From an uncultured bacterium (GTDB lineage: Bacteria > Babelota > Babeliae > Babelales > RVW-14): a stretch of DNA of 64,000 bases. A model generated the notes under the pieces. That model ran no database searches and was not told the DNA's origin. It saw only the letters and a list, made by a program, of their open reading frames with translations. Position numbers and translations under genes: made by a program. The stretch lies in NCBI GenBank assembly GCA_963759805.1, contig CAVXAT010000004.1:59483-123482 (forward strand), in the 5' to 3' direction. Below, one piece after another: positions 10,548-54,490 of this stretch (the stretch's first letter is position 1; each line of letters opens with the position of its first letter).

Positions 10548-10651
10548 TTGCCCGCTCGTGGTGAGTGTTTTTTGCAGGCCGCACCCTTCGATACGCCTCG
10601 CGGCGCTCGGCACTCAGGGCGAGCGGCCAAAAAAAATGTATCGAACCATGC
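10548..10651. repeat. GC-rich modular repeat, copy C (intergenic or 5' of the pseudopilin gene)
   Basis: A GC-rich island in AT-rich DNA. ctcgTGGTgagtg (10555-10567) and tgtatcgaACCAt (10637-10649) enclose T6, a reversed copy of the 37051-37104 module, and A8. Flanked by the 9-nt direct repeat gaaccatgc (10539-10547 and 10643-10651). Confidence 0.7.
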
Positions 10652-10667
10652 GGGCATAAAATTTACT

Positions 10668-11249: not shown

Positions 11250-14213
11250 TTGCATGGACTTTTAATGATTAAACAGTTTTTTAGATTGCTAAGTGCAATT
11301 TTTGTGGGATTAATCCTTTCGATTTGGATTATCCAAAATAATACAGAAGTTGAGACAGCAATTGCAAAAAAAATAATAGCCATATTAGAAAAAGAATGGA
11401 GTGTGAAGATTGATACGAAGTCTTCACGAGTTAATCTTTTCACTTGTTCGTTATATCTGAATAATGGTCATGTAAAGTACCTAAAAAAAGATAATTGTCA
11501 TTGGGCATTTGATCAGTGCAAAATTCATGTTCAGCCTCTAGCCTTTTTTCGTAAGAAGAAAGTCAATCTGGATCTTAAATTTGATAATGTTATTATAAAC
11601 TCCGGATTGACCGGTAGTACCCCTGATATTACTGAGCATATATCAAAGATGTTTTCTGGGGAGTCTTACGATTTAAATATTGCCGTAAAATCCGTTTGTA
11701 TAAATAATTTAGATTTAACAATTTTAAATCTGCCGCACACCTATCGTGCCCAGGTTGAAGGTTCTTTTTTAATACAAAAAATTAGACATGCGAAAAAAGA
11801 TAATTTGCCAAATTCTTGGCAGGGTGATCTTTTAATCAAGAATGCACAGTTTAGTATTGACGATAAAGTTTTTATTAAGCAGTTTTCAACGTCCGGAAAT
11901 ATTTATTATAGTAGAGTGGCCTCAGCATGGTTATCCAAAGTCGATAGTGTCATAAAGTCTTTAATCCCAACACCGGCTCAAAGTTACAGTATAAATTGCG
12001 TTTGGAATAACGATAAAAAATATTTAACAGTTAAAAACCCCGCCCTGGACCTTAATTTGGACGTATCATATCTTGGGGATAAGATTCTTGGTGATAAAAT
12101 AAAAGTTTGTGGGATTTTTCCGGCAGAGCTTGCATTGCAAGTGGCTGGATTTTTTGGCCTAGGAGTTACGGACTCTGGCGCGTCACCCAAGGGTGATGGT
12201 TCGACAAGCTCACCACGAGCGCGCCAACCTAATGGCGCTCGTCCTGCTGTGCCCGGCGTAGCCACGAAGGGCGAAGCCTGGGAGCCTGTCGAAGGATGCG
12301 AATTTCAGGAGGGAGCAGGAGTCACAGGTAAGTGTCAGCTAGATTGTGAGTGGTTATTAAATGATTCAAGACTTGATCCAAAGAGCAGTATAATTATTGA
12401 CGACTTAAAGATAAGAGATCTTAAATTGGGTAAAGTTATTTTAAAACTCAGAGAAAGCAGCAATGAAAAATTAGCAGCAACAATTGATTTTTTATATGAT
12501 CAGGATTTGCAAGCGTTGGGATTATTGAAGTGGGATTGGGCCAAATCAATGGGTAAAATAAAAGTGATGAATAAGTTACCCATTAAATTTCTCAAAGAAA
12601 CATCAAAGCGGTTGGGATTTGGTGGATATGAGATAGGCCCCAAAAATTTCTTTGTTAGCTCAGAGTTTGATAAATATTTTAATTTAAACGGGGATTACAG
12701 CCTTAATATTGCCGATCATTCTGCCAGCAAAACTTTTAAGTATGATGGAAAATTCAAGATCGAGAATAATGAACTAAAAATTAATGGGGCAACACAAAAA
12801 GGTGAGTACGAGATTAATTCTAAATTTTTCCCAAGGCCATCTATTTTAAAATGGGTTTATACCGTTAATGATAAAAAATTAATTGATTTGCAGTGTTGTG
12901 ATACACAAACTAACATTTTACATGGCAATATTAACTTTGCATTAATAAGATCCTTTTTAACGCAAAGCGCAAAGCATCTGGTTTTGGGTCGTGATTGTAT
13001 ATTTAATTTGGCTGTTGATCAGAACGATTTTTTCCATCTTCATGGTAATGCCAAGCTTGCAAGTGGTAAATTTTACATTCCGGAAAGTAGAAATCTAATT
13101 GAAAAATTTCAAACGGATTTTGAAATTAATATTCCATTGCGCAGGATTATTCTTAACAATTCACAGATTGGATTTTTTAAGGGCGAAATCTCAAGCCCTA
13201 AAATTATTGTGCAGTTGGATGAGAATAATTTACTTAGCAATCTACACATACCCCTAAAGATTAAAGATTTACTGCTTAATTGGAAAAATGATCTGCTCGC
13301 AATAGTTTACGGAAACGTTCTTATCAAGAAAAATTTGCAAGGAAATTACAAGGCATTGGCCAATTTGATTGTAAAAAAATCGATTCTGCGGGAAAATATT
13401 CTGTCGTTACCTGAAAATAAATCATTTTCTAGTCCCCTGGGCATATCTTTCTTGCAAAGCAATGATTTTGATTTTGATATCAGGCTTTCAAGTGAGCAAC
13501 CGATAAAGGCCAAAACCCCTTCACTTGAAACAAGCGCATCTATAAATTTGCGAATTTTATATCAAAAAAATAAAAATGTTATGAGAATTCCTCAACTAAC
13601 CGGATCTATTAAGCTTGATAGCGGTCATATTAAATTTTTGCAGACAAAATTATATTTTGAGTATGGTAAAATTCAATTCATATCAAACCAGATGAATGAT
13701 CCGATTATTGACTTGATAGCTCGTAATAGAATTAACAAGTATCAGATTACCCTGCAGGCTACAGGATCGTTACAAAAGCCAATAATTCTGCTTGAGTCAA
13801 ATCCCGAATTGACAGAAGAGCAGATATTGGGGCTTCTCTTATCAGGGTCTGAAGCCGCAAAACTTCAAACCGATCTGTTTGCGATGCTGGAGCAGAATTT
13901 GCACGATATGATTCTTGGTAATAAGACAATCTCTCCCGGTGCGACGAGTTTTTTCCAAAAGCTTGCCAAGCCATTTAAATATATTCAAATTACTCCGGAT
14001 TTCACAAATCAATCTGCAAGAGGTGGAATAAAGGGGACGGTGTCTGCTAATCTTACTGATCAGGTAAAAGCTCAAATTCAGAAAAACTTTAATTTACCAG
14101 GTGATTTTAGTGCTCAGATCGAATATCAGGTCGCTGATGATGTAAGTCTTAAGGGGAGCGTTGATCAGCGAGGGGAGCTTGGGGCAGAGGTAGAACTAAG
14201 GCTTAAACTTTGA
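11250..14213 (+). CDS. tamB: TamB/AsmA-like translocation and assembly module protein
   Basis: N-terminal TM helix in a 987-aa protein. The C-terminus has a DUF490-like pattern (ITLQATGSLQKPIILLESNPELTEEQILGLLLSGS...VELRLKL). Carries an in-frame GC-rich insert at about 12165-12325. Confidence 0.65.
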   Translation: MHGLLMIKQFFRLLSAIFVGLILSIWIIQNNTEVETAIAKKIIAILEKEWSVKIDTKSSRVNLFTCSLYLNNGHVKYLKKDNCHWAFDQCKIHVQPLAFFRKKKVNLDLKFDNVIINSGLTGSTPDITEHISKMFSGESYDLNIAVKSVCINNLDLTILNLPHTYRAQVEGSFLIQKIRHAKKDNLPNSWQGDLLIKNAQFSIDDKVFIKQFSTSGNIYYSRVASAWLSKVDSVIKSLIPTPAQSYSINCVWNNDKKYLTVKNPALDLNLDVSYLGDKILGDKIKVCGIFPAELALQVAGFFGLGVTDSGASPKGDGSTSSPRARQPNGARPAVPGVATKGEAWEPVEGCEFQEGAGVTGKCQLDCEWLLNDSRLDPKSSIIIDDLKIRDLKLGKVILKLRESSNEKLAATIDFLYDQDLQALGLLKWDWAKSMGKIKVMNKLPIKFLKETSKRLGFGGYEIGPKNFFVSSEFDKYFNLNGDYSLNIADHSASKTFKYDGKFKIENNELKINGATQKGEYEINSKFFPRPSILKWVYTVNDKKLIDLQCCDTQTNILHGNINFALIRSFLTQSAKHLVLGRDCIFNLAVDQNDFFHLHGNAKLASGKFYIPESRNLIEKFQTDFEINIPLRRIILNNSQIGFFKGEISSPKIIVQLDENNLLSNLHIPLKIKDLLLNWKNDLLAIVYGNVLIKKNLQGNYKALANLIVKKSILRENILSLPENKSFSSPLGISFLQSNDFDFDIRLSSEQPIKAKTPSLETSASINLRILYQKNKNVMRIPQLTGSIKLDSGHIKFLQTKLYFEYGKIQFISNQMNDPIIDLIARNRINKYQITLQATGSLQKPIILLESNPELTEEQILGLLLSGSEAAKLQTDLFAMLEQNLHDMILGNKTISPGATSFFQKLAKPFKYIQITPDFTNQSARGGIKGTVSANLTDQVKAQIQKNFNLPGDFSAQIEYQVADDVSLKGSVDQRGELGAEVELRLKL
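12165..12325. repeat. GC-rich modular repeat, copy A (in-frame inside tamB)
   Basis: 12195-12225 is identical over 31 nt to 42578-42608. gcccggcgtagc, agcctggg and ctggcgcg are shared with the other copies. Outer boundaries are approximate. Confidence 0.75.
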
Positions 14214-15595: not shown

Positions 15596-15888
15596 ATTTA
15601 TAGCTTTGCTGTAAATTATCTTCGCGCTTGTTGCAAAATTATCTTAAATTTATAATTCAAAAAATCTTAGGCAATACACTAAATACAGGTGCTGTTATTG
15701 CTTTTATAGCGATTAAAATATGCTTTAAGTAAATATTCCCACACTGGAAGAATCCTACAACAATAAAACGCAACTTGGTTGTGCACGGACTATCCCCAAT
15801 TTGGGCTGCGAATATAAGTGGCTTAAGCAAGGGAAGACGGAGGCTAGACGCCTCCTCTTACCCGATTAAACAATGCCAAAGAAATTTT

Positions 15889-15933
15889 GCAGTGCCCGAC
15901 ATAGCCTTGCCTGAAGGCTATGTCGGGCACTGC
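15889..15933. terminator. perfect 18-bp stem hairpin between convergent genes
   Basis: gcagtgcccgacatagcc (15889-15906), a 9-nt loop, then ggctatgtcgggcactgc (15916-15933). Lies between the PLD-like gene end and the giant gene stop. Confidence 0.6.
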
Positions 15934-18900: not shown

Positions 18901-21900
18901 TGTTGCTGACGTGAACGATTGTGTTTGCAGGTATGTTCCAGTTCGAACCAACCAAAGTGTTTGGCACACCGGAATAATTTATTAGGTTAGTTGGAATTTG
19001 GGCATTTTTTGCACTTACATCGGAGATTAAATTGTAATCACCCAAACCGGCGTTTGAGACGTTAGAAATTATAGAGCTGTCTTGCCAACCAACCACGGTG
19101 TTTGGGGTCATGTGAATTTCAGAGTTGCTGTTTTTTAATACAAAGCTTGCATTGTTATTACTGAACATTGTGTAGCCCATGGTGTTGTCATAATTTAGAA
19201 TCCCGTCGACTGAGACATTTGCACCTGAAAGTAACTGAACGCCTAAGTCTGATGCTGATCCAGAGGCAGAGTTACCAAACACGATTGAATTGGTCAGAGC
19301 TTGGGTCAACCTATTTACAATGTAATTAACACCAAATACTTTTAACGTATTGGATGAATTATTAACAAGAGCAATAAAACGACCGTCTGGTGACCAGGCG
19401 ACTGAATATGGGTGAGTTCCGGTAGCAGCTACACCGTTGCCAGTAGTAACTTGAGTTGGGTTACCCGAACCACTGAATGTAAATATTTGCAATGTGGAAG
19501 AGTCACGATTAACAACAGCAAGAAAACGCCCATCCGATGACCAGGCTACTGCAAATGGAGAAGATCCGGTACTAGCTTGGCCAACCAATGTTGGGTTGCT
19601 GGTACCATTGAAGCCAAATATTTGCAATGTGGAGGAACCCAAATTAACAAGAGCAATAAAACGACCATCCGGTGACCAGACGACTGAATATGTGGTAGTT
19701 CCCGTAGTTACACCAGTGCCGGTAGTAATTTGGGTTGGGTTGCCAACCCCATTGAAGCTAAATATTTGCAATGTACCGACATCCCAATTAGAAACAGCAA
19801 TAAAACGTCCATCCGGTGACCATGCAACTGAAGCTGGTTTAGATCCGGTAGTTATACTGCCAACAAATGTTAGACTGCCACCCCCACTGAAGCTAAATAT
19901 TCGCAATGAATTTGGGGGACTACCAACAACAGCAATAAAACGCCCATCCGGTGACCAGGATGCTGCCCATGGGCCAGCTCCGGTAGCTACACCTGTGCCG
20001 GTAGTAACTTGAGTTGGGTTACCCGAACCACTGAATGTAAATATTTGCAATGTGTTAGTCGCCTGATTAGCAACAGCAATAAAACGCCCATCTGGCGACC
20101 ATAAAGCTGAAGTTGTGCTCCCTGCCACAGCTGCACTGCCAACCAATGTTAGGGTCCCAGCACCACTTACTCTAAATATTTGCAGAGAGCCCGGGGTAGT
20201 ATTATTAACAGTAGCAATAAATCTTCCATCCGGAGACCATGATCCCCAATTTGGTGTAGATCCGGTGGTTATGCCATGAAGACAAGCCACCGGGGTGGTA
20301 CTCGTCGTAGCCAAATCCGATGACGCATTGCTTCTCATCGTCACACGATTATCAAAAAACAATGACCCCGTTCTAAGTCTGCATCCGGTCAGTGTTGTTA
20401 AAAAACTGCATCCATTAAGATAAAGTTTCGATGTCTTATCTGCCATCCAAATAAAATTATTTGTTGTGTAAGTTGATTTTACCGAATAAGGACAATCGGT
20501 AAATGTTGCCGGTGCAACTGAGAATGTTGTTCCTGTATCAAAAAATAGTCGGCCACCCGATGTAATAAAGCTTGGCATTGGTGAAGTGTAAATAAATGCT
20601 GACGTTCCTGTAAATTTAACATCGTTATTAACAAACAGTTGACCATGGCTGAAATTAAAATCACCGATCATGTTTAGAGTTGAATTATCAAGCACAAGTT
20701 TACTTCTATTCGATGATAGATAAATTGCAGGATTACCCACAAAGTTTTCAGTGTTACTAATTACAACGTTTCTTAAAGTCAAAGTTACATTGTCATCAAC
20801 AAAGATTTCGGAATTAGCACCCAGATTTATAGTTCCACCATATCCATCCATTAAAATATTATTTTGAATGTGAACAATTGTATTTGCGGGAATATTCCAA
20901 TTAATGTACTGCATGCTGTTGTTAACTTCAGCGTAAGTTATGATGTTATTCGTACTGTAATCATACTGTTTTAAATTGTAATCTCCCAATCCTATACCAC
21001 TCACATTATTTACAATAGAACTATCTCGCCAGCCAAGCATTGTCGCTGGATTTATGCGAATCTCTGAGTTGCTGTTTTTTAACACAAAACTTGCATTGTT
21101 ATTACTGAATATTGATGTTGAATTCACATTATCGTAATTAACTATTCCGTCGACTGAGACATTTGCACCTGAAAGTAACTGAAGATTTAAGTCTGATGCA
21201 GAACCGACAGCCGAATTACCAAACACGATTGAATTAGACACAGCTTGTCCAGTTGTCTCTTGCCCATAAGCAAGAGCTCCTATCGACAGTGACTGGTAAC
21301 TTGCTGGGGTTGGTGTATAGCCACCGGCTGCCAGATAAAGGCCACTTGGATGTACATCAGTGCTATAAATGTAGGTACCAAAAGATACTGTTTGTATAAA
21401 AGTTAATGACGGAAATTCTATATAGAGTATCAGGTCTCTTGAGGCAGTATCATTTCCACCCACAAGTAAAAATCTTCCATCCGAGCTCCATTTTACCGTT
21501 CTTGCACTTGTCCCAAACGGTAACGCTGAGACTTGCACCGATGAGGTCGCTGCCGAATTCACTGAGTAAACATACATCGTGCCGGTGCCGGAAACCAACC
21601 CTGTTGTTGCCAAGTAGTTTCCATCAGGACTCCAGGAAACACTTGTTCCATACCCCGATGCATAATTTCTTGATAACAATGGAGATCCACCAAGGACTCC
21701 ATTAGTAACAGAGTAAACGGCTATACTTGCCGTTGCAGAGTTTGAAGCAATCGCAATATATTTTCCACTTGAATGCCAAGCAATTCCTAGAACCTCTGCC
21801 GTTGTTGCAGTTGAAACTTGATTTAAAGCACTTCCGGTGAACTGGTATATCGTCAAGTTTCGCATGTTACCGCCAACTGCCAGATAGTGCCCATCAGGGC

Positions 21901-22728
21901 TCCAACTTACCGGACCTGTGTATGAGGCACCCGTTGTACCAAGATTTGTCTGCACTACCGGTGAAGAAAAGTTATTAGCAGCTGAGTAAATTTGTAAGTT
22001 CGATGTTGATACCGTTAAAGATAAAGGTATATTTACTTTTCCACCCGCCGCCAAATACTGCCCATCAGGACTCCATGAAACACCAGATGCCGTCACCGAA
22101 AAGCCGACTGTTGCTAACGTTGACGTCGTCGTTCCAGAGAATAGATACACTGCCAAGTTATTTGCCTGTGGGCTCGTTCTTGTCTGACCCGCCACCGCCA
22201 ACTTTCTTCCGTCAGGACTCCAATGCAACTTATCAATTTCCCTGAATGCATTTGCAATACCGGTTCCAAGTGTAAGAATTGCGCTTGTACCTGTTGCCCT
22301 GAATGATGTCGCACTTGTCATTGTAACGTTATTACCAAGCAGCAACTGCCCTTTGGTCAGACGCATTCCTGTCAGCGTTGTTTTCAACGCCGTTCCGTCC
22401 AGTGTCAGCTTTGACGTGGCATCGCCCATTATCAACAGATCTTTTGCCAAAAGTCCGGTCGTACCGCTTGTAGAAGGTTCAAAGTAAAAGGTTGTCTTTG
22501 GGTTAAATTTAAGATTTGCTCCTGACATGATATAACTTGGAACAGTTGAGCGGTAAATAAATGAGCTTGTTCCGGTGAAAGTAACATCGTTGTAAGCAAA
22601 CAACTCTCCCTGATTAAAGTAAAAATCATTCACGAAATTCATTCTTGCATTATCAAGAACAAGTTTGCTTCTGCTTGTCGCAAGTTGTATCGGTGGATTA
22701 TTTGCAAAATTCTTACTGTTACTAATCA
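15959..22728 (-). CDS. giant modular surface protein, C-terminal about 2254 codons (severed from its N-terminus by an IS)
   Basis: Three 7-bladed propellers built from a 45-aa (V)SWSPDGRFIAV.. repeat (PD40/YVTN-like). They alternate with beta-helix-like segments (NWNIPANTIVHV.NN..LDGNGNT..IGANSEIFVDD..TLTLRNVV...NPAI.L.SNRS.LVLDN). The GTG start at 22729 in the ORF track is created at the IS junction. Confidence 0.8.
17698..18102. repeat. three near-identical tandem 135-bp units (45-aa propeller blades) inside the giant gene
   Basis: caacagcaataaaacgacc recurs at 17698, 17833, 17968 and 18103 (period 135). The units differ at only a few positions, and more diverged units flank them. Confidence 0.85.
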
Positions 22729-23894
22729 CAGGACTTCCTCAAAATAACAAACTGCCTGATCTAGTCTGATCTACAAAAAAAATGTACTCTCTCAGAAGGG
22801 TTTGATCGTACAAATCAAAATCTGAGGAGAGTACAATGCTTTATTCAAGCACAGTTCTAAAATATCCAGTCTTAACATTGTTGTCTAGAGGCAAGAGAAG
22901 CTTCGAAAATATGGGATTACTAATTCAGCGAAGTGGTGACACTGTAAAAAGGTTGCTACATCCAGCAGCGCACAGCTTCAATGTATCAAGAAGCATTTGC
23001 CAATCTATGTTTGCAAAAAATGAAATTTTATGTGTAGGCATTGATGATACCTTGTTGCGAAAAATTTATTCGAGATTTATGCAGGGTGCTGGAATGTTCT
23101 TTGATACGAAAATTGGTCGCAGTATCATGGCTTACAAGTTGGTGATTGGCATAATCACAGATGGTAAATTTGCAATCCCAATCGATTGTGCGTACATTTT
23201 TGCAAAAGAAATTCTCGATTCAATCGACGAAAAATTTCCAACAAAAGATGAAATTGCAAAATCATTTGTAAAAACAGCCATAAAACTTTTCCCAGACAAG
23301 AAAATAATTGTGGTTGTTGATGGACTTTACACATCAGTCGAGTTTGTACGATGGTGCAAGCTCGAAAACATCAAACTGGAGGCTCGAATGCATAGCAATC
23401 GCGTTGTTGAATACGATGGCGAGCGAATTAAAATCAAAGATCTTTTGAAGAAAAATGGATTGCGGCCCTTGGGCCGCCAGATGGCTCGTACAATATCTGT
23501 CGCTTGGCATTCAATTGATCTAGAGCTTACAATCGTGCGTCGTTTTGACAAAAAAGGCAGAGAATCGATTGTCTTTCAAGTGGCAACATATAAAGCTTTG
23601 CCTCGTGAACATGTTGCAAACTATAAAAAACGATGGAAAGTTGAAGAGCTGAACAGAACCACAAAACAAGAAATCGGGTTGCAAGAATGTTTTTCTAGAT
23701 CGCTTGAAACACAGCACAATCATGTAGCGTCTGTGCTTTTGGCTTATGCGTTTGCCCAGCTGGAGCGCAAATTTTCTAGACTTGATAACGTAGAACAAGC
23801 GCTCAGACGGTTTGAGACGAAAACTGTGAACTTTTTAATTGATAGATTTTCTAGATTTTCAAAGGGCTTTCAGCACTTTGATGCGTGAGTCCTG
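22729..23894 (+). mobile_element. IS element (IS4/IS5-superfamily DDE transposase), 1166 bp, 6-bp target duplication
   Basis: Ends caggacttcctc.. (22729) and ..gagtcctg (23894) form imperfect inverted repeats; the first 7 nt are identical. TAATCA is duplicated at 22723-22728 and 23895-23900. Confidence 0.8.
22836..23888 (+). CDS. DDE transposase (IS4/IS5 superfamily)
   Basis: GIDDT and VVVDGLY acidic motifs, plus YKKRWKVEELNRTTK, which fits the Y-2-R-3-E-6-K signature. RBS gaggag lies upstream. Confidence 0.8.
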   Translation: MLYSSTVLKYPVLTLLSRGKRSFENMGLLIQRSGDTVKRLLHPAAHSFNVSRSICQSMFAKNEILCVGIDDTLLRKIYSRFMQGAGMFFDTKIGRSIMAYKLVIGIITDGKFAIPIDCAYIFAKEILDSIDEKFPTKDEIAKSFVKTAIKLFPDKKIIVVVDGLYTSVEFVRWCKLENIKLEARMHSNRVVEYDGERIKIKDLLKKNGLRPLGRQMARTISVAWHSIDLELTIVRRFDKKGRESIVFQVATYKALPREHVANYKKRWKVEELNRTTKQEIGLQECFSRSLETQHNHVASVLLAYAFAQLERKFSRLDNVEQALRRFETKTVNFLIDRFSRFSKGFQHFDA

Positions 23895-24395: not shown

Positions 24396-26517
24396 TTAAC
24401 TTACATTGTCGTAATTTATAATTCCATCAACTACTGCATTTGTTCCTGCGTACATACCAATATTCAAATCATAATTTGATCCTAACGCCGAGTTGCCAAA
24501 AACAATTGAGTTGGTCAGGGCTTGGATTTGCGTTTCATAGCTCCAGTGCAATGCCTGTACCTGCAACTCCTCAAATGATGGTGAATTGGCAACATTACCG
24601 GCAATAGCCAAAAAATTGTTATCTGGACTGAATGCAATACCACGAGCATAAGTTGAAGTAAAGTAAAATGTGCCAATTGAGGAAAGTGTATTCCTCACAA
24701 GTTGACAAACAGTAGCGTTATATGTCGGCGTTGTTTGATCTTGTCCGCAAAATGTCACGTAACGACCGGTTTTATCCCAGGCACAAGCATATCCCTGCGC
24801 ACCGGATGCAGCTGTTGTAAGGGTAGCAACACTGTACTAATGCACTACCGGTAAAATAATGCACCCAACCCATAGTTTGTGTCCCCGCAGTTGTTCCAGT
24901 TGCCAAAAATCTTCCATCCGGACTCCAAACAGTATCAGAAGCACTGGTAATAGTGTAACTATTAAGCAGAGGCAAAGACTTTCCCGTAAATTTGTATATC
25001 GAAAGATTATTCGCAGGGTTAGAACATGCAGCAATAGTTTGCCCATCAGGATTCCAAGATGCACCATAGCCATCGCCTCCCAAAGATGCTGATATAACAA
25101 AATTAAGAGAAATTCCTGTAAATGCATAAATAGCTAATTGATTTGAGCTCCAATTAGAAGCAACAGCAAGATAGCGTCCATCAGGACTCCAACGAGCAGT
25201 CCAGGCTGTGATACCAGAACCCGATACAAAAGCTATCTGTGCAAGAGTTGTTCCGTTAAAAGAATAAACTCTTACATAGGTATTCGATGAATCCAGTCCG
25301 GCACATGCTAAATATCTTCCATCCGGGCTCCAACTAACTCCAAGGCAAGAGTTTGCCCATATCGCAGTTTGAGTAATAGGGGTAAATGATGTTCCATTAA
25401 ACCCTAGAACTACAAATCTGACAGAGCCGGCAGGCCCACTATCAACACCAAAGGCTATGTATCTTCCCGAAGGATGCCAATCAACACAAGCGGCTCTTGA
25501 TGATGCCTGCCAGTTAGTAACGGTAGTAGAAAAGTCAGCAAGTCGAAATGCTGCGGCACTTGTCATTGAAACTTTGTTGTCAAATAACAACTGCCCCTTG
25601 GTTAAACGAAATCCGGTATATGTTGATTTAAGGGTGCAACTGTTTAAATAAAGCTGACTTGTCGGATCGGACATAAACAATAAATCTTTTGCCAAAAGTG
25701 AAGGGGTCCCGGTTGTGCTAGGATAAAAATCAAGTGTTGTTCCAACATCAAAGTACAATTTTGCCCCTGATGTTATAAAACTTGGTTGGCATGAGCGATA
25801 AAAGAATGCTGACGTACCGGTTACAGCAACATCATTATGAACAAACATGCTGCCTTGATTAAAATAAAAATCGTTGGGAAGATCAAGCTCAGCATTATCA
25901 AGACAAAGTTGGCTTTTAGAAGATGCACACTGGATGGCAGGACTCCCCGGACTGTTCAATGTCCCTTGCACTATCAGATTTTTCAGCGTCAGCGTAGCAC
26001 CGGTATCAACAAAAAGCTGTGCTCTGTTACCCAGTAATAATTTATGTCCATTCCCATCAATAACAATTCTGTCGCCTATGTGAATAACCTGTCCGGCAGG
26101 AATCGTTAAGTCTCCTTTTAAAATAAGCGCTCTGTCGTAACCATAAATGTTTCCGCCGGAAGAAAATGTAGCTCCATTATCCAGGGTTAAATCTGATTGA
26201 AGAAAAATCGTATTTGTTTGACGCAAATCAATGGCACCGGAGACGGAAAGACATGTGTCCATAAAAACACAGGAGCCATGAGTACGGCCAGGTCCTGTGC
26301 TTACAACAGTAACCGTAAATCCATTATCCATTCTGACCACACCAGAAGCAAATTGCTGATCATAAAAAACGTTATTAAAAGGTTGAAATGCGTAATAAGG
26401 CGGCGTAGTACCCGAACCGCCCAGACTTCCGGCAGATAAACTAAAAAAATACATTGCTGTAAAAATCACGACTCTTGTTAAAAAAAATAGCATCATTTTT
26501 TTAGATACAAACTTCAT
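24396..26517 (-). pseudogene. single-module paralog of the giant protein (signal peptide, beta-helix, 7-blade propeller), one frameshift
   Basis: ORFs 24772..26517 and 24396..24758. The downstream frame is open back to the TAG at about 24838-24840 and encodes ..SVATLTTAASGAQGYACAWDKTGRYVTFCG, a continuation of the blade repeat. The shift is at about 24830-24840. It ends ..DGIINYDNVS, like the module ends of the giant protein. Confidence 0.7.
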
Positions 26518-29696: not shown

Positions 29697-29712
29697 GTTT
29701 CCTGCCATTTTT

Positions 29713-29819
29713 GTCATGCTGAACTAGTTTCAGCATCCATGGATGAATTTATTCCAAATTTCTGCAATGGGGCAATAGGAACAACTAATCCATGGATCCT
29801 GAAATAAATTCAGGATGAC
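29713..29819. repeat. AT-rich palindromic element, copy 1 (107 bp)
   Basis: gtcatgctgaactagtttcagcatccatgga ... tccatggatcctgaaataaattcaggatgac. About 31-nt inverted arms, each itself a hairpin, around a 45-nt loop. Near-identical to 37250-37349. Confidence 0.85.
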
Positions 29820-30076
29820 AAATCTGTGATCGTAAGATATTTTTGACACGCGTGGCCCCTTTTATAAATTATCGAGTTCACGTTAATTAAATAAAGTTTG
29901 CAAAAATTTTGAAGTCCAAGACAAGTATTTAGCAAAAAATTGCGCAAATTGCGATCTGGAGCGAATTTTACTATTCCGTTTTATGGGCATTCCCATAACT
30001 AAAATATTTCGTGTTAATTTTTTTCCAAACAGTTAAAATGTTTTATGAAAACTTGTGATAAGTTGAAAGGAGTCAA

Positions 30077-36898: not shown

Positions 36899-36978
36899 GA
36901 GGCATCCTTTGTTAACATCAGTTCGATAATTATAAAAAACAGCTGTGAATGCTAAAAGTGGCTTCCGACCAGAGATGT

Positions 36979-37349
36979 GTCATCCTGAATTTATTTCACA
37001 ACTGTCCGAAGTGCTTTTAAAGCCATCTGAACGCTTGTTGCGCTCACTCAAGGGCGCTCGCCCTGAGTGCCGAGCCTTGCGAGGCGTATCGAAGGGTACG
37101 CCCTAAAAACTTATTCTATCCGCCGTTGCGCTCTATCCTTCGATACGATTTGCTAAGCAACAAGTTGCTTGCAAATCACTCAGGACGAGTGCGATGAAAA
37201 CCATACGCATCCGACGATTCAAAGCTACGTTTAACACTTCGGACAGTTATGAATTTATTTCAGGATCCATGGATAGATTTATTCCAAATTTCTGCAATTG
37301 AGCAATAGGAGCAACTAATCCATGGATCCTGAAATAAATTCAGGATGAC
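36979..37349. repeat. AT-rich palindromic element, copy 2, interrupted by a nested GC-rich element
   Basis: The left-arm start gtcatcctgaatttatttca (36979-36998) and the remainder tgaatttatttcaggatccatgga...tccatggatcctgaaataaattcaggatgac (37250-37349) reconstitute a copy of 29713-29819. Confidence 0.85.
36999..37249. mobile_element. GC-rich modular repeat, copy D (251 bp, MITE-like: 14-bp terminal inverted repeats, 13-bp flanking direct repeat)
   Basis: aactgtccgaagtg (37000-37013) is the reverse complement of cacttcggacagtt (37235-37248). Flanked by tgaatttatttca at 36986-36998 and 37250-37262. The interior holds two modules shared with copies B and C. Confidence 0.75.
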
Positions 37350-37661
37350 AAATATGCAATTCAAAGGCTTCTCACTGTAAGCATTTTAAACTTTGCTGGG
37401 TTATCGAATTGGTGCTTTGTTATTAACAGTTCAAAATTAACTTGTAGATTAACATAATTTCTGCGGGTTTGAAAACATGGACAGAAGATCTCTTTCTAAA
37501 TTTTTGGAGCCTGGCCTTTACCGCTTACAATCTAGCCGATTATTTACAAATGATAAATTTATTGACTTAAGAGTATTCAACTTTGTAGCATGATACTAGA
37601 GGCGATAAGTTTAGTTTTATGCATTGGACCTAGTAACTCAATTTTACAGGGGGGAGGGTTT

Positions 37662-41686: not shown

Positions 41687-43687
41687 ATGCTAAGTAAAGA
41701 ACAGATTGATGCGAAACATCTTTTATACCTAAAACACCAGGCTCTTAATTTAAGAATAGATTCTATTCGGGCAACCACGCAAAGTAAATCAGGACATCCG
41801 ACCTCCTGCCTTTCTATAGCTGATATTGTTGCAACAATTTTTTTTAATTTTTTGCGTTACGATTTAAAAAATCCAAAACATCCAAATAACGATCGGGTAA
41901 TTCTTTCCAAGGGGCATGCAATTCCGGTGATATATGCTGCATGGAAGCAGTTTGGAGTTATCAGCGACGAAGAGCTGATGTCCCTGCGTAAGTTTACTTC
42001 CCCTCTTGAGGGACATCCAACGCCGACATTTGCATACAATGAAGCTGCAACAGGGTCGTTGGGCCAAGGCCTATCTATTGGCCTGGGAATGGCGCTGGCT
42101 GCGCGCCTAGATAAATTGGATTTCACAACCTATGTTTTGATGGGTGATGGAGAAATAGCAGAGGGTTCGATCTGGGAAGCCGCAGAACTGGCTGCTTTTT
42201 ATAAAGTTGATAATTTAATTGGATTTGTTGATTGTAATCGATTAGGGCAGTCTGGACCAACATTGCATGAGCATCAAGTTCAAAATTATGTGAATAAATT
42301 CCAAGCTTTTGGCTGGAAAACATTATCTATCGACGGACATGATATTTCGCAGATAGTTGATGCAATAAATGTTGCAAAAAGTACTAAGAATCAGCCAACG
42401 ATGATTATTGCAAAAACAGTTAAGGGGTATGGCCTTGAGGGAATTGAGAATGAGGCAAATTGGCACGGCAAGCCTCTTACTCAAGAAGCTGCAGAAAAAG
42501 CAATTTCACAGCTTAAAATGACATTTAATAGACTTCTTCCGAAGCCTGGCGCGTCCGTCTACGCCAAGGCTACGACGGATGGTTCGACAAGCTCACCACG
42601 AGCGCGCCTACTTAATCCCGCTCATCCTGAGTGTTTTGCGAAGCTTGCTGAGCAAAATGTATCGAAGGATTGTCCTGCCTGCCCGCCCGGCGTAGCTACC
42701 TCGAGCGGAGCCTGGGTGCCTGCCGACCTGCTTCAAGATCCAAACAAAAAATATTTTGAAAAGAATGCGTTACTCTCAACCCGCAAAGCCTATGGATACG
42801 CCTTGCAATCACTCGGGCAAGACAATCCTGACATTGTTGCCCTTGATGCTGATGTTAGCAATTCGACTTTTTCAGATATTTTTGCCAAAACCTTTCCTGA
42901 AAGATTTATTCAGTGTTTTATTGCTGAACAGAACATGATTGGGGTTTGCGCCGGGTTGCAATCTCGTGGCAAAATTCCTTTCGCTGCCACATTTGCAGCA
43001 TTTTTAACGCGTGCTTTTGATCAGTTGCGTATGGCAGGAATTGGGCGCAATGCCTTGAGGGTCTGCGGTTCGCATTGTGGCGTTTCAATCGGGCAAGACG
43101 GGCCATCGCAGATGGGGCTTGAAGATATAGCAATGTTCAATACGATCCCAAATTCCATAATCTTGTATCCATCGGATGCTGTTTGCACTTATAAACTTAT
43201 GAATTTGTGTGCTACTTACAACGATGGCATTTCTTACTTGCGTACGACTCGTGCAGACACGCCTGTCATTTACGATCTGGACGAGAAGTTTGAAATTGGC
43301 AAATGTAAAGTCCTGCGACAGAGCGAGAAAGACGTTTGTTGCCTTGTTGCTGCAGGGATAACTTTGCACGAAGCTCTTAAAGCATACGAGCAACTAAAAT
43401 CCCAAGGCATTTCAGTTGCTGTAATTGATCTTTACTCCGTCAAGCCCATGGATATCCAAACTATACTTAAAGTTGCCCAAAAATCTGGCAATAAAATTAT
43501 TTCAGTCGAGGATCATTATATTAACGGTGGAATTGGGCAGATGCTTGCAGCCCAAATTATTAATTCTGGAATTAAACAGAAAATGCTTGGAGTTACAAAA
43601 ATTTCCAGGTCCGGAACGCCTCAAGAACTTATGCATGACGCTGGAATAGACGCTGACAGTATTATCAGAGCTGTAAAAGAATTTTAG
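41687..43687 (+). CDS. tkt: transketolase (fused N- and C-terminal halves) carrying an in-frame GC-rich repeat at the inter-domain linker
   Basis: SGHPTSCLS, GSLGQGLSIGLGMA and MGDGEIAEGSIWEA (TPP-binding) in the N-half. STRKAYGYAL...FIAEQNM..GQDGPSQMGLEDIA in the C-half. Confidence 0.9.
   Translation: MLSKEQIDAKHLLYLKHQALNLRIDSIRATTQSKSGHPTSCLSIADIVATIFFNFLRYDLKNPKHPNNDRVILSKGHAIPVIYAAWKQFGVISDEELMSLRKFTSPLEGHPTPTFAYNEAATGSLGQGLSIGLGMALAARLDKLDFTTYVLMGDGEIAEGSIWEAAELAAFYKVDNLIGFVDCNRLGQSGPTLHEHQVQNYVNKFQAFGWKTLSIDGHDISQIVDAINVAKSTKNQPTMIIAKTVKGYGLEGIENEANWHGKPLTQEAAEKAISQLKMTFNRLLPKPGASVYAKATTDGSTSSPRARLLNPAHPECFAKLAEQNVSKDCPACPPGVATSSGAWVPADLLQDPNKKYFEKNALLSTRKAYGYALQSLGQDNPDIVALDADVSNSTFSDIFAKTFPERFIQCFIAEQNMIGVCAGLQSRGKIPFAATFAAFLTRAFDQLRMAGIGRNALRVCGSHCGVSIGQDGPSQMGLEDIAMFNTIPNSIILYPSDAVCTYKLMNLCATYNDGISYLRTTRADTPVIYDLDEKFEIGKCKVLRQSEKDVCCLVAAGITLHEALKAYEQLKSQGISVAVIDLYSVKPMDIQTILKVAQKSGNKIISVEDHYINGGIGQMLAAQIINSGIKQKMLGVTKISRSGTPQELMHDAGIDADSIIRAVKEF
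42536..42730. repeat. GC-rich modular repeat, copy B (in-frame inside tkt)
   Basis: About 63% G+C by hand count over 42541-42600, against AT-rich flanks. Shares a 31-nt identity with 12195-12225. Contains the module ctcaTCCTgagtg..gtatcgaAGGAt (42621-42670). Confidence 0.8.
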
Positions 43688-46095: not shown

Positions 46096-46394
46096 AAATA
46101 TTCCATAAAAAAAGAGTAAAAAAATATTAACACCAATAATCCAAAGAACAAGACTAGCAGCAATTGTAATTAAATGAATAGCAAATTTTATTAAGTTTTT
46201 TAGTTTAGTCCCTTAAATTTCATTAAATCAAATATTTTGATTATTAAAATATATTATTGACTATGAGTGAGTAAAAGCTTGTAGAAGTCTATTTATATTG
46301 AAAAAAACGTATAACTTGTTACCATACTTGAACGAACTTGAACCAAAATCTTAATAAATAAAGCGAATTCGATAACTAAAGAAAAATAAAAAAA

Positions 46395-46460
46395 CCTGGA
46401 TCCCGGCCTTCCGACTTCGCTCTGCGAGCTACGACGGACAGGTCGCCGGGACGACGCCAG
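46395..46460. repeat. GC-rich repeat fragment, copy E
   Basis: cttccga...gctacgacgga is shared with 42536-42579. The internal stem is tcccggc/gccggga. Confidence 0.55.
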
Positions 46461-46560
46461 TAGAAGATCATGGCTTATTTTGGTTTACAACGAATTGTTT
46501 TTAGGCCTTAAAGTAAGCAATTAATTATCGAACTCGCGTTAAATAAATAAAGGATTTAAC

Positions 46561-53714: not shown

Positions 53715-53799
53715 GGGGAGATTCCCGAGTGGTTAAAGGGGACGGACTGTAAATCCGTTGGCTATGCCTTCGTAGGTTCGAATCCTACTCTCCCCACCA
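53715..53799 (+). tRNA. tRNA-Tyr (GTA), CCA encoded
   Basis: Hand-folded. Acceptor ggggaga/tctcccc, anticodon stem acgga/tccgt with loop ctGTAaa, long variable arm, T-arm gtagg-ttcgaat-cctac, then A-CCA. Confidence 0.9.
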
Positions 53800-53925
53800 T
53801 CCTTCGCCCTCGTTTTGCTCGTGGCTACGGATGGCAAGCCAGTCTTCGATGCTATGCAGCTTTCGCCGTCGCATAAAGCTATGGCGGGCACGGCGTCTGG
53901 CGCCCTACATGACTTCCGCGATAGT
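53800..53925. repeat. GC-rich repeat, copy F, abutting the tRNA-Tyr 3' end (possibly the outer left end of the adjacent IS200-like element)
   Basis: A GC-rich island starts at the base after the CCA. ggctacggatgg resembles ggctacgacggatgg of copy B, and ctggcgcc is related to the shared ctggcgcg. Confidence 0.55.
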
Positions 53926-53929
53926 TTTT

Positions 53930-54490
53930 TAGTAAAAGAGCTGAAACCCCCAGGTCTTTCAAGCCTGGGGATGAAAGCTCACCGCTGGCGCGAAGCAAAA
54001 TTAGTTTACTAAATTTTGCGAAGAGCCACTGGAAATGGCATACTATGATACATGGAAAAGTATTGGACAGGTGCGCATACGAAACACAGGCTAATGTATC
54101 ATATAGTATGGATTCCCAAGTATAGAAAAAGAGTATTGAAGGGAAAGGTCGCGGAGCGACTGAAGGAGTTGTTTTTACAGTGCGCAGACGTTAATAAATG
54201 GGAAGTTAAAGAGCTAAGCATTCAAGAAGATCACGTGCATATGCTAATTCAGTTAAAACAAAATATAAGTGTAAGCTATGCAGTTCAGTTGTTAAAGGGT
54301 GGAAGCAGCAAAGTAATTAGGGAAGAGTTTCCGGAGCTTGAAGAGTTCTTATGGGGTGACAGCTTCTGGTCAGATGGATATTTTGCTGAGACGGTTGGTG
54401 AGGTAAATGTGAATAAAGTTAGAGAGTACATAAAAAATCAATAAGGTAGAAGCACCGCGCTTTTAAGCCGGTGCGATTCACTTAATAAAT
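53930..54490 (+). mobile_element. IS200/IS605-family element (tnpA only); boundaries approximate, may extend left to 53800
   Basis: Y1 transposase ORF flanked by subterminal hairpins: ccccagg..cctgggg (53948-53970) upstream and gcaccg..cggtgc (about 54452-54478) downstream. No tnpB. Confidence 0.6.
54052..54444 (+). CDS. tnpA: IS200-type Y1 (HUH) transposase TnpA
   Basis: YHIVWIPKYRKRVL, HVHMLI (HUH), LKGGSSKVIREEFPEL, FWSDGYFAETVG (catalytic Tyr) and REYIKNQ. Confidence 0.9.
   Translation: MEKYWTGAHTKHRLMYHIVWIPKYRKRVLKGKVAERLKELFLQCADVNKWEVKELSIQEDHVHMLIQLKQNISVSYAVQLLKGGSSKVIREEFPELEEFLWGDSFWSDGYFAETVGEVNVNKVREYIKNQ

What the first reader, a model, noticed from the sequence alone, without database searches (positions are those of the whole stretch)
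37051..37189. Covarying 4-bp helix and conserved junction define the GC-rich repeat module (candidate structured RNA or ssDNA motif)
Every module has the form ctcR-N4-gag(tg)-[variable hairpin or nested module]-(gta)tcga-N4'-t, with N4' complementary to N4. Three different pairs occur.
- TGGT/ACCA: 10555-10649, and the 31-mers 12195-12225 and 42578-42608 on the opposite strand, where the interior is only the tetraloop cttg.
- TCCT/AGGA: 42621-42670, 12238-12297, and 37135-37189 on the minus strand.
- CCCT/AGGG: 37057-37097, and 10583-10623 on the minus strand.
The junction strings stay constant while the helix and the interior hairpins change. Those hairpins are ttttgc..gcaaaa, atttgc..gcaaat and gccgagc..gcgaggc. 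If N4 pairs with N4', the adjacent gag/tcga bases would form tandem G-A/A-G followed by G-C. The gccGAgc/gcGAggc hairpin offers a second tandem G-A. That geometry resembles k-turn or loop-E-like RNA motifs. This looks like selection on a fold, not only on sequence.
Basis: partly seen in the sequence, partly recalled or inferred. Interest (0 to 1): 0.8.

Follow-up and report, generated by a model that had tools for sequence, protein, structure and literature searches.

The report
REP-like GC-rich hairpin repeat family
The finding is real: a short GC-rich repeat whose two 4-base arms always change together. It behaves like a selfish, hairpin-forming DNA repeat scattered through the genomes of Dependentiae bacteria and some others, not like a dedicated RNA gene.

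Summary
All eight cited copies exist. In 116 loci from other genomes, anchoring only on GAGTG…GTATCGA gives 222 copies. About 190 have perfectly complementary N4/N4', at least 14 different Watson-Crick N4 types occur, and all four positions covary. The 25 chance matches in viral contigs show no complementarity.

The full element is CCGCTC-R-N4-GAG-U-G-[variable hairpin]-Y-GUAU-CGA-N4'-T, usually closed by an outer helix.

Its genomic behaviour is that of a REP/BIME/MITE-like repeat:
- About 250 covariance-model hits in 786 kb.
- Mostly intergenic, and depleted between divergent genes.
- Random orientation relative to genes and to GC skew.
- Neighbours within 150 nt are inverted 63:2.
- Copies nest in each other's apical loops.
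- Some copies sit in frame in protein linkers.
- Absent from syntenic DNA of close relatives.

One specific strand folds: G·T is frequent and A·C almost absent. The C-GNA-G triloops are typical of stable DNA mini-hairpins. That favours a single-stranded DNA fold recognised by an unidentified protein.

No Rfam match, no GTAG tag and no RAYT partner were found. The window's IS200 transposase shows no association with the repeat. A k-turn or loop-E RNA reading remains untested. Related mini-hairpins (N4-GAG-CYTG-TCGA-N4') are multicopy in proteobacterial plasmids.

The parts
37052..37103 (+). Full module, N4 CCCT/AGGG. Layout: outer helix GGGCG/CGCCC, CTCG, CCCT, GAGTG, hairpin GCC-GA-GC…GC-GA-GGC, GTATCGA, AGGG, T. 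Left member of a convergent doublet.
   Evidence: (58.2 bits, E 1.6e-13)
37133..37192 (-). Full module, N4 TCCT/AGGA, interior hairpin ATTTGC…GCAAAT with a further inner hairpin. Right member of the convergent doublet, 39 nt from its partner.
   Evidence: 42.8 bits; 51.5 bits
36982..37266 (.). 32-nt inverted repeat (36982-37013 / 37235-37266) that encloses the doublet. It belongs to a ~510-nt AT-rich TIR element (about 36899-37410) that is absent at the orthologous site of a related genome.
   Evidence: (I6)
10550..10655 (+). Outer module, N4 TGGT/ACCA, outer helix GCCCGC/GCGGGC. Its apical hairpin (TTTTTT…AAAAAAAA) carries a nested module. It lies between ruvA and the probable start of a pseudopilin gene.
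   Evidence: (45.4 bits)
10577..10628 (-). Nested full module, N4 CCCT/AGGG, outer helix GGCCGC/GCGGCC, in the opposite orientation to its host module.
   Evidence: (59.4 bits)
42618..42672 (+). Full module, N4 TCCT/AGGA, hairpin TTTTGC…GCAAAA. It is in frame in the inter-domain linker of the transketolase ORF 41687-43687.
   Evidence: (59.8 bits)
42547..42613 (-). Composite. The outer helix GGCGCG/CGCGCC encloses a mini module (42577-42605, TGGT/ACCA, GAG-CTTG-TCGA) plus a GTAG-containing hairpin (42553-42576). It is divergent to the module at 42618, with an 18-nt gap.
   Evidence: (21.9 bits)
12176..12230 (-). The same composite in the TamB-like ORF 11250-14213: outer helix GGCGCG/CGCGCC, mini module 12194-12222 (TGGT/ACCA) and hairpin CACCC-TTG-GGTG.
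   Evidence: (22.2 bits)
12235..12299 (+). Variant module, N4 TCCT/AGGA, with altered junctions (G-CTGTG … CCTG-TCGA). Its interior is a GTAG-type GC-rich hairpin. In frame in the TamB-like ORF.
   Evidence: (7.4 bits only)
42673..42730 (+). Degenerate continuation of the transketolase composite: TCCTG-CCTGCCCG-[CCCGGCGTAGC…GCCTGGG]-TGCCT. It is homologous to 12252-12290, and the host reading frame resumes at GCCGAC.

Best explanation
The module is one member of a family of small (about 30-60 nt, longer when nested), GC-rich, imperfect-palindrome repeats. These behave as non-autonomous selfish DNA, functionally like REP/BIME/REPIN and MITE elements.

One defined strand folds into a stacked hairpin. 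From the outside in:
- an outer helix using CCGC(TC) and (GA)GCGG;
- the covarying R-N4/N4'-T helix;
- an invariant GA-rich internal loop (GAG-U-G opposite Y-GUAU-CGA, that is tandem G·A/A·G, a G-C pair and a 1x4 loop);
- a free-to-vary apical hairpin, usually capped by a C-GNA-G triloop.

Shown:
- the fold is maintained by compensatory change;
- the junction and the 5' CCGCTCR string are sequence-constrained;
- copies are dispersed, orientation-neutral, paired in inverted doublets, nested in apical loops, tolerated in frame in protein linkers, and polymorphic between related genomes.

Inferred: the fold forms in single-stranded DNA. The invariant loop plus the terminal CCGCTCR tag would be the recognition and cleavage determinants of a trans-acting structure-specific enzyme. 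An HUH/Y1-type enzyme is the obvious analogy, but none was identified. This enzyme would copy or move single modules or doublets. N4 covaries because the enzyme needs a helix of fixed length there, not a particular sequence. Copies survive mainly where they do no harm: 3' intergenic regions, loops of other repeats, and flexible protein linkers.
For: - Covariation: with the negative control.
- Abundance: 246 covariance-model hits in 786 kb of module-bearing loci, and 8 copies in the 64-kb window.
- Orientation is random relative to flanking genes (23/24 and 19/19 between co-directional genes; 16/18 inside ORFs; singles 14/13). There is a deficit between divergent genes (15, against 44 between convergent genes).
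- There is no bias relative to local GC skew (105/99).
- Neighbours within 150 nt are inverted 56:0 (strict definition) or 63:2 (loose) and are often of different N4 types.
- In one Myxococcota MAG, the repeated unit is a convergent doublet that runs exactly from CGCTC to GAGCG.
- Nested copies occur in both orientations inside apical hairpins, and in a Comamonas mini copy.
- The same composite lies in frame in two unrelated genes.
- Transketolase relatives of 625-626 aa lack the insert, or carry different repeats in the same linker.
- About 47 kb from three close relatives (L118-L120), much of it syntenic with the window, contains no module. The ~510-nt block holding the 37-kb doublet is missing at the orthologous site.
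- Strand-specific fold: G·T 100 against A·C 1 in stems; G·U at two fixed positions in 57% and 82% of copies.
- C-GAA-G, C-GTA-G and C-GCA-G are the commonest loops. DNA GCGNAGC mini-hairpins melt at 76.5 °C, whereas r(GCGAAAGC) melts at 39 °C (PMC13037366).
Against: - No mobilising enzyme was found. No RAYT-like or other transposase lies among recurrent neighbours or among ORFs flanked by modules.
- The window's own IS200-type Y1 transposase (54052-54441) has unrelated flanking hairpins. Only 2 of 80 loci encoding its relatives contain a module.
- No target-site duplication or clean insertion boundary could be defined.
- IS200/IS605-like single-strand transposition usually shows a replication-strand bias, and none is seen here, though only a GC-skew proxy was used.
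- Conserved G·U wobbles and tandem G·A pairs are equally at home in RNA. DNA versus RNA therefore rests on loop statistics and orientation, not on an experiment.
- Thermodynamic folding alone is unimpressive and sometimes prefers alternative pairings (z-scores -0.5 to -3.8).
Confidence: 0.62

Rival explanations
1. The module is a functional structured RNA motif (k-turn-, loop-E- or tandem-GA-type protein-binding hairpin) that acts in transcripts. For example, it could be a 3'-end stabiliser, a processing site or a binding site for an L7Ae/YbxF-like protein. Inverted doublets would guarantee one sense copy whichever way the region is transcribed. This role could also have been acquired secondarily by a mobile repeat.
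For: - The invariant GA-rich internal loop is flanked by covarying helices.
- Conserved G·U wobbles occur at two positions, and the fold is strand-specific.
- Copies are enriched downstream of genes and between convergent genes.
- 54% of copies are in inverted doublets, so either transcript carries a sense copy.
- REPs are thought often to act as RNA elements (PMC3733652).
Against: - Single copies are as often antisense as sense to the surrounding transcription unit (14/13 between co-directional genes, 17/9 inside ORFs).
- No Rfam family matches, even at E up to 10.
- Apical loops are mostly GNA triloops, not the GNRA/UNCG tetraloops typical of RNA (PMC13037366).
- A canonical k-turn register would need a C-stem that opens with G·U and U·G pairs.
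- Nested copies in the opposite orientation and in-frame coding copies are hard to reconcile with one RNA function.
Confidence: 0.2
2. The complementarity of N4 and N4' is a by-product of how palindromic repeats are generated or homogenised, not of selection on a fold. Candidate processes are fold-back or template-switch synthesis, and intra-hairpin mismatch correction. A few master copies would then have been amplified.
For: - Three N4 types (CCCT, TCCT, TGGT) make up most copies, so much of the count reflects amplification of lineages.
- Layered structures such as (N4-GA)n…(TCGA-N4')n look like palindrome growth from the centre.
Against: - At least 14 different perfectly complementary N4 types exist, and non-complementary combinations are rare singletons.
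- The element is not a simple palindrome. Asymmetric invariant strings (GAGTG against GTATCGA; CCGCTCR against T) and strand-specific G·T pairs persist next to the covarying helix. Arm-copying mechanisms would erase these.
- Interior stems covary independently of N4.
Confidence: 0.08
3. The element is an RNA-mediated or catalytic mobile element: a very small ribozyme or retro-element that cleaves and ligates itself into hairpin loops.
For: - The core is invariant, purine-rich and flanked by three helices.
- Insertions recur into apical loops.
- It is distributed across phyla without a recognisable transposase partner.
Against: - It resembles no known self-cleaving ribozyme family in Rfam.
- No reverse transcriptase is associated with it in the sampled loci.
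- Nesting in loops is explained just as well by survivorship, because insertions elsewhere would destroy the host copy.
Confidence: 0.04

Closest known systems
REP / BIME / REPIN elements of Proteobacteria (GTAG- and CGTC-tagged palindromic repeats; PMC3733652, PMC3116915)
   Same: - Short imperfect palindromes in hundreds of copies.
- Mainly between co-directional and convergent genes.
- Neighbours in inverted orientation, often of two different types (like the Y/Z REPs of BIMEs).
- A conserved tag at one end next to the hairpin.
- Occasional in-frame copies inside genes.
- Presence/absence differences between relatives.
   Different: - No terminal GTAG or CGTC; the tag is CCGCTCR.
- A strongly conserved asymmetric internal loop (GAGTG/GTATCGA) splits the stem.
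- The apical hairpin is freely variable and can host nested copies.
- No RAYT gene was found next to copies, so no REPtron.
- Hosts are mainly Dependentiae/Babeliales.
Rickettsia palindromic elements (RPEs)
   Same: Palindromic repeats of an AT-rich intracellular bacterium. They are found in intergenic DNA and in frame inside functional protein genes, adding peptide segments in tolerant regions (background in PMC3733652).
   Different: From memory, RPEs are longer (about 100-150 bp) and confined to Rickettsia. They are CGTC-tagged according to PMC3733652. No sequence resemblance was tested or noticed.
MITEs (for example Correia/NEMIS, ERIC, RUP, Nezha)
   Same: Non-autonomous and multicopy. 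The convergent doublet has module-sized terminal inverted repeats that end in CGCTC…GAGCG. Some doublets lie inside larger TIR-bounded elements.
   Different: - Single modules also occur alone.
- No target-site duplication was seen.
- No cognate IS with matching ends was found.
- The unit is far smaller than most MITEs.
Very small nested dispersed repeats of cyanobacteria (SDRs) and GC clusters of yeast mitochondrial DNA (both cited from memory, not checked here)
   Same: Tiny GC-rich or hairpin-forming repeats in AT-rich genomes. They insert into one another and occasionally into coding or structural RNA genes without an identified transposase.
   Different: Different sequences and hosts. I did not retrieve the papers, so this resemblance is a lead only.
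Extraordinarily stable DNA mini-hairpins GCGNAGC / GCGNNAGC (PMC13037366)
   Same: The commonest apical caps of the modules are C-GAA-G, C-GTA-G and C-GCA-G, that is GNA triloops closed by C-G with a sheared G·A. Such hairpins are recognised in single-stranded DNA by primases and by phage N4 RNA polymerase.
   Different: Those are isolated functional hairpins at origins or promoters. Here the cap is the least conserved part of a repeated element.
Kink-turn and loop-E/sarcin-ricin RNA motifs
   Same: Tandem G·A/A·G next to a Watson-Crick helix, with extra unpaired nucleotides on the 3' strand (…GUAUC-GA-N4').
   Different: In the simplest register the G·A pairs are followed by a G-C pair and a 1x4 loop, not by a 3-nt bulge. 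The k-turn register needs G·U/U·G at the start of the C-stem. There is no AGUA/GAA loop-E signature in register. All the nucleotides involved are invariant, so the motif cannot be tested by covariation.
Mini-hairpin repeat CCGTTCG-N4-GAG-CYTG-TCGA-N4'-CGAACGG of proteobacterial replicons
   Same: Same core (N4-GAG…TCGA-N4' with complementary N4: CCCT, TCCT, TGGT). Multicopy and intergenic in Sphingobium, Comamonas, Moraxella, Novosphingobium and other plasmids (58 records, up to 20 places per record). It is hit by the module covariance model at about 25 bits, and a nested copy was seen.
   Different: It lacks the UG…YGUAU extension and the apical hairpin; the loop is CYTG. The 5' flank is CGTTCG, not CGCTCR. 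The full module was not found in plasmids or phages. I found no published name for it.

Membership tests
REP elements (GTAG/CGTC superfamilies) | Short imperfect palindrome, high copy number, dispersed | tested here: met
   There are 8 copies in 64 kb and 246 model hits in 786 kb of loci. The fold is supported by covariation.
REP elements (GTAG/CGTC superfamilies) | Conserved terminal GTAG or CGTC tetranucleotide | tested here: not met
   The conserved 5' string is CCGCTC[AG], and the 3' end is T plus a variable spacer. GTAG occurs only in neighbouring, different GC-rich hairpins.
REP elements (GTAG/CGTC superfamilies) | Location mainly between co-directional and convergent genes | tested here: met
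   Counts are 85 co-directional, 44 convergent and 15 divergent.
REPIN / BIME | Two units in inverted orientation separated by a short spacer, acting as the repeated unit | tested here: met
   Neighbours within 150 nt are inverted against tandem 56:0 (strict) and 63:2 (loose). The doublet with shared ends is repeated within one Myxococcota MAG. All 8 window copies form 4 inverted pairs.
REPIN / REPtron | Cognate RAYT (REP-associated tyrosine transposase) gene flanked by the repeats | tested here: inconclusive
   No HUH/RAYT motif ORF was found in about 845 kb of module loci, apart from an IS200-type gene in the window. That gene scores 143 bits for IS200 and 35 bits (cut-off 80) for RAYT. ORFs flanked by modules are not transposases. 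Whole genomes were not scanned.
IS200/IS605-derived palindrome-associated elements | Hairpins matching the LE/RE hairpins of a resident IS200/IS605 copy, and co-occurrence with it | tested here: not met
   The hairpins flanking tnpA at 53938-54028 and 54449-54472 are unrelated to the module. Modules occur in 2 of 80 loci that encode TnpA relatives.
MITE | Terminal inverted repeats plus target-site duplication | tested here: inconclusive
   Convergent doublets end in CGCTC…GAGCG, but no duplication is visible. The transketolase and TamB inserts have no clean boundaries.
Kink-turn RNA | Three-nucleotide bulge followed on its 3' side by tandem trans sugar-Hoogsteen G·A/A·G, with a canonical C-stem on the other side | tested here: inconclusive
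   The sequence allows the register Y-G-U | AUC | GA-N4' opposite N4-GA | GUG, but the C-stem would then start with U·G and G·U. The alternative register pairs the invariant G and C (145 of 146 copies). All positions are invariant, so covariation is silent.
Any Rfam family (including hammerhead, twister and other small ribozymes, and riboswitches) | Match to a curated covariance model | tested here: not met
   At gathering thresholds only tRNAs are found. At E up to 10, only spurious sub-threshold hits appear over the module regions.
Integron attC sites | Imperfect hairpin with conserved R''/R' (RYYYAAC/GTTRRRY) boxes at the ends of gene cassettes, next to an integron integrase | tested here: not met
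   There are no such boxes in the consensus. Copies are not at cassette boundaries.

The most novel reading that the evidence does not exclude
The invariant CCGCTCR tag plus the GA-rich internal loop is the recognition core of a previously unrecognised, cross-phylum class of ultra-small mobile hairpin elements. The class would comprise the full modules in Dependentiae, Myxococcota and Chloroflexota-labelled MAGs, and the mini GAG-CYTG-TCGA hairpins in Alpha-, Beta- and Gammaproteobacteria. These elements would spread without RAYT or IS200 partners. Either a new structure-specific enzyme acts on a kinked single-stranded DNA fold, or the spread goes through an RNA stage. They would preferentially integrate into the apical loops of other hairpins.
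Probability: 0.12. Interest if true: 0.8.

Novelty: new variant of a known kind. Interest (0 to 1): 0.5.

Why it matters
Dependentiae (TM6) are poorly studied obligate symbionts of protists. As far as my searches show, no repeat family has been described for them.

- This family marks lineage-specific genome invasion. It breaks short-read assemblies: a Logan contig ends inside a copy. It also adds peptide segments to essential enzymes such as transketolase.
- It offers hundreds of natural sequence variants of one small fold, with an invariant tandem-GA loop. That makes it a ready-made system for asking what protein reads such a structure, and whether REP-like elements can spread without a RAYT.
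- The link to a mini-hairpin that is multicopy in many Proteobacteria suggests a much wider, unnamed family. This hairpin translates into recurrent 'junk' peptide motifs in hypothetical proteins, so recognising the family would also help annotation.

Tried and rejected
- **Rfam.** Gathering thresholds on the whole window, and E up to 10 on three module regions, gave nothing relevant.
- **IS200-type transposase in the window as mobiliser.** Its end hairpins differ from the module. Only 2 of 80 metagenomic loci with relatives carry modules. I rejected it as the partner, though not rigorously excluded.
- **REPtron search.** Recurrent neighbouring ORFs are ankyrin proteins, tRNA synthetases, FtsK and the like. 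ORFs flanked by modules on both sides have no transposase domains.
- **Exact insertion boundaries from the transketolase gene.** The linker is restructured rather than simply interrupted. Comparing the two genic composites shows a 51-nt difference flanked by TCCTG repeats, which could be either an insertion or a deletion.
- **Outer helix at a fixed offset.** The signal was only weak (0.38 against 0.28) because the spacer after T varies. By eye the partner is (GA)GCGG.
- **Replication-strand bias by local GC skew.** None was found.
- **Thermodynamic folding.** z-scores were modest and alternative pairings appeared, so it is not decisive for DNA or RNA.
- **Viral contigs, phage genomes and plasmids for the full module.** There were only chance matches or none.
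- **Literature searches.** Searches for Dependentiae repeats, for the DNA strings and for the encoded peptide motifs found nothing relevant.
- **Protein-level explanation (a selected peptide module).** Rejected, because the same element occurs in both orientations and mostly outside genes.
Full report
**The observation.**
- Four full modules lie at + 37057-37096 (CCCT/AGGG), - 37136-37189 (TCCT/AGGA), + 42621-42669 (TCCT/AGGA) and - 10584-10623 (CCCT/AGGG).
- One outer module lies at + 10555-10648 (TGGT/ACCA). Its apical hairpin holds the 10584-10623 copy.
- Two 'mini' copies lie at - 12197-12219 and - 42580-42602 (TGGT/ACCA, interior GAG-CTTG-TCGA).
- One variant lies at + 12238-12297. It keeps CTCG-TCCT…TCGA-AGGA-T but has different junction strings.

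GAGTG-N(6-36)-GTATCGA occurs four times against 0.07 expected from shuffles. A covariance model built later recovers all of these copies. The variant at 12235 scores only weakly.

- Most loci come from Candidatus Babeliales/Dependentiae/TM6 MAGs.
- Several hits each come from megabase contigs of Myxococcota MAGs with 50-57% GC.
- Others come from low-GC MAGs labelled Pseudomonadota, and a few from contigs labelled Chloroflexota or Binatia.

I then re-anchored on GAGTG…GTATCGA alone in these loci, leaving all of N4, N4' and the flanks free.
- This gives 222 copies, and about 190 have four Watson-Crick pairs.
- At least 14 different complementary N4 types occur: CCCT, TCCT, TGGT, TCCC, TGCT, TACT, CCCC, TTCC, TATT, CACT, CGGT, TCTT, GCCT, TAGT and CCTT.
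- Each of the four positions shows two to four pair types.
- Non-complementary combinations are rare singletons.

Formal counts support this.

| Alignment | Cells paired | Paired in shuffles | Covariation score | Score in shuffles | Score with slid partners |
|---|---|---|---|---|---|
| Gap-free, 36 copies | 94% | 71% | 0.668 | 0.243 (0 of 500 reach it) | 0.09-0.14 |
| Model-fitted, 146 distinct copies | 97% | 75% | 0.641 | 0.225 | 0.04-0.14 |

The second alignment is fitted to the model and leans towards the structure. The same pattern scanned over IMG/VR gave 25 matches, all with 0-3 complementary positions. This shows what chance matches look like.

**Anatomy.**
- The conserved 5' string is CCGCTC[AG].
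- The R faces the conserved T after N4' (G·U 83, A-U 51, G-C 1).
- After N4 come the invariant bases G, A, G, U, G. Before N4' come Y, G, U, A, U, C, G, A.
- The third G and the C are an invariant potential pair. The last G faces the last interior base (G·U 120, G-C 21).
- The simplest reading is a helix, then tandem G·A/A·G, a G-C pair, a 1x4 loop (U opposite GUAU), a G·Y pair, and a variable hairpin.
- The variable hairpin covaries at every stem position.
- Downstream of T there is a spacer of 0-7 nt, followed in many copies by GCGG or GAGCGG. This can pair with CCGC(TC) to give an outer helix. In the window the outer helices are GGGCG/CGCCC, GCCCGC/GCGGGC, GGCCGC/GCGGCC and GGCGCG/CGCGCC.
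- Mini copies have CYTG(U) in place of UG-hairpin-YGUAU.

**Genomic behaviour.**
- *Orientation.* It is random relative to neighbouring genes: 23/24 and 19/19 between co-directional genes, and 16/18 inside ORFs. For copies outside doublets it is 14/13 and 17/9. Orientation is also random relative to local GC skew (105/99).
- *Context.* Copies are depleted between divergent genes (15) compared with convergent (44) and co-directional (85) pairs.
- *Doublets.* More than half of the copies have a neighbour within 150 nt, and these neighbours are almost always inverted: 56:0 with a strict definition and 63:2 with a loose one. Partners often have different N4 types. All eight window copies form four inverted pairs. 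In one Myxococcota MAG, six loci share a convergent doublet, and similarity starts at CGCTC and ends at GAGCG.
- *Nesting.* Copies nest in the apical hairpin of other copies in either orientation.
- *Inside larger elements.* Some doublets sit inside larger TIR-bounded AT-rich elements.
- *Inside genes.* A minority (7-20%, depending on the ORF criterion) lie inside long ORFs without breaking the frame.

In the window, two genes carry copies of one composite element in frame: the TamB-like ORF and the transketolase. The transketolase insert lies in the linker between domains. Relatives at about 80% identity are 625-626 aa and lack it. Other relatives carry unrelated repeats at the same place.

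About 47 kb from three such relatives (L118-L120), much of it syntenic with the window, contains no module. The ~510-nt block that holds the doublet at 37.05-37.19 kb is simply absent from the orthologous LeuRS/peptidase-C11 spacer. A short-read contig from the same organism ends inside the 10.55-kb copy.

**Which strand, and which nucleic acid.** The fold is strand-specific.
- In simple hairpins G·T outnumbers A·C by 100 to 1, mostly at the fixed G·Y position.
- The G·A candidates and the GNA loops exist only on the module strand.
- The commonest caps are C-GAA-G (30), C-GTA-G (17) and C-GCA-G (8).

According to a 2026 review, DNA GCGNAGC mini-hairpins melt at 76.5 °C. The RNA r(GCGAAAGC) melts at 39 °C. 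Such DNA hairpins are read in single-stranded DNA by primases and by phage N4 RNA polymerase (PMC13037366). Both strands of the tandem G·A step are in a Y-GA-R context. From my own knowledge, that context favours sheared pairs in DNA. Together with the orientation data, this makes a single-stranded DNA fold the more likely object of selection. It remains an inference. Nearest-neighbour folding is not decisive.

**Partners and known families.**
- Rfam has nothing, even at E up to 10.
- The module lacks the GTAG or CGTC tag of the REP superfamilies (PMC3733652). GTAG-containing GC-rich hairpins are its frequent neighbours in the window.
- A motif scan for HUH transposases found one ORF in all the sequence held: window 54052-54441. 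It is an IS200/IS605-type Y1 transposase (Pfam E 2e-42; NCBIfam IS200 143 bits, RAYT model 35 bits against a cut-off of 80).
- Its flanking hairpins are unrelated to the module. Of 80 metagenomic loci encoding relatives, only two contain modules, and not as flanks.
- Recurrent neighbours, and ORFs bracketed by modules, are ordinary genes.
- The mobilising activity is therefore unknown.

**Relatives of the core.** While reading the encoded peptides I recalled that strings such as VLSLSKHE, PFDKLR and VRQAHHER are common in hypothetical proteins. They are translations of N4-GAG-CYTG-TCGA-N4' hairpins. A BLAST of CCGTTCGCCCTGAGCCTGTCGAAGGGCGAACGG against PLSDB confirmed a multicopy repeat.
- It matched 58 records and 257 places, with up to 20 places per record.
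- Hosts include Sphingobium, Comamonas, Moraxella, Novosphingobium and others.
- No annotated feature lies under the matches.
- The repeat shows the same N4 types and lies between genes. In one case a copy is nested in the loop of another.
- The module model scores these copies at about 25 bits.
- The full module itself was not found in plasmids or phages.
- I found no paper that names either form.

**Interpretation.** The best-supported account is a REP/BIME/MITE-like selfish repeat.
- One strand must fold. Its helices need only be helices. Its terminal tag and GA-rich loop are read sequence-specifically by a trans-acting protein.
- The architecture, a conserved tag next to a hairpin foot with a structured hairpin, is the substrate logic of HUH/Y1 enzymes. 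That step is analogy, not evidence.
- The main rival is a functional RNA motif, possibly a role acquired secondarily as proposed for REPs. Inverted doublets would supply a sense copy in either transcript.
- The equal numbers of sense and antisense single copies, the GNA caps and the lack of any Rfam relative argue against the RNA motif as the primary explanation.

**Limits.**
- The loci were chosen because they contain a module, so densities there are inflated. The window gives 8 copies per 64 kb.
- Copy counts are not independent events.
- MAG labels and binning may be wrong for short contigs.
- GC skew over 8 kb is a crude proxy for replication direction.
- Whole genomes were not scanned for candidate enzymes.
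- Element ends and target duplications remain undefined.

Noticed in passing
window 54052-54441 (+), with 53938-54028 and 54449-54472: An IS200/IS605-type Y1 transposase gene (130 aa) is inserted between tRNA genes (53715-53796 and the cluster from 54571). It has two imperfect hairpins upstream and a GCACCG…CGGTGC hairpin downstream. It is apparently a complete small IS200-like element.
   Followed up: yes
window about 36899-37410, about 46362-46545, and 29706-29890: An AT-rich MITE-like family with terminal inverted repeats of the form TAAC-R-N3-5-TTCGATAAT. The first two copies are absent at the orthologous sites of related contigs L119/L118, and each carries GC-rich hairpin repeats inside.
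   Followed up: partly
window 29783-29822, 36975-36998, 37250-37274, 37318-37353: A palindromic repeat, TGTCATCCTGAA(tttat)TTCAGGATCCATGG. In related genomes the same sequence sits in frame in the transketolase linker, where it reads …CHPELVSGS… (alignment A1).
   Followed up: partly
window 12250-12285, 42553-42576, 42690-42720, 46393-46474, 53797-53920: A second class of GC-rich hairpins contains GTAG/CTAC and cGAAg/cGTAg mini-hairpins. It resembles GTAG-tagged REPs and is often fused to or nested in the modules.
   Followed up: no
window 12175-12299 and 42547-42730: The inserts in the TamB-like and transketolase ORFs are copies of one composite element. They differ by a 51-nt block (a whole TCCT module) bounded by direct TCCTG repeats. 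This could be an insertion with a 5-nt duplication or a deletion between the repeats.
   Followed up: partly
window 15889-15933: A perfect 20-bp-stem palindrome (GCAGTGCCCGACATAGCCTT…AAGGCTATGTCGGGCACTGC) lies between two convergent ORFs. A further GC-rich hairpin lies at 15826-15865.
   Followed up: no
window 15959-22729 (-) and 24772-26517 (-): A 2256-aa ORF is built from ~135-nt (45-aa) tandem repeats. Related repeat units occur in neighbouring ORFs.
   Followed up: no
L123 12126-12160 (Comamonas endophytica plasmid NZ_CP106882.1): A mini hairpin is nested exactly inside the loop of another: CCCT-GA[TCCT-GAG-CCTG-TCGA-AGGA]TCGA-AGGG. This gives stacked layers of N4-GA / TCGA-N4'.
   Followed up: no
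L018 3290-3500 and L112 1780-1990 (MAG OY969699.1): A ~210-nt repeated element with 13-bp terminal inverted repeats (CCTTATGCGTAAT…ATTACGCATAAGG) carries a convergent module doublet. A third locus (L116) shares only the left half with a single module.
   Followed up: partly
window 10509-10672: The ORF called from 10509 probably starts much later, at a TTG near 10672, just before the N-terminal methylation motif. The module at 10550-10655 is therefore likely in the ruvA-pseudopilin spacer and not in coding sequence.
   Followed up: partly
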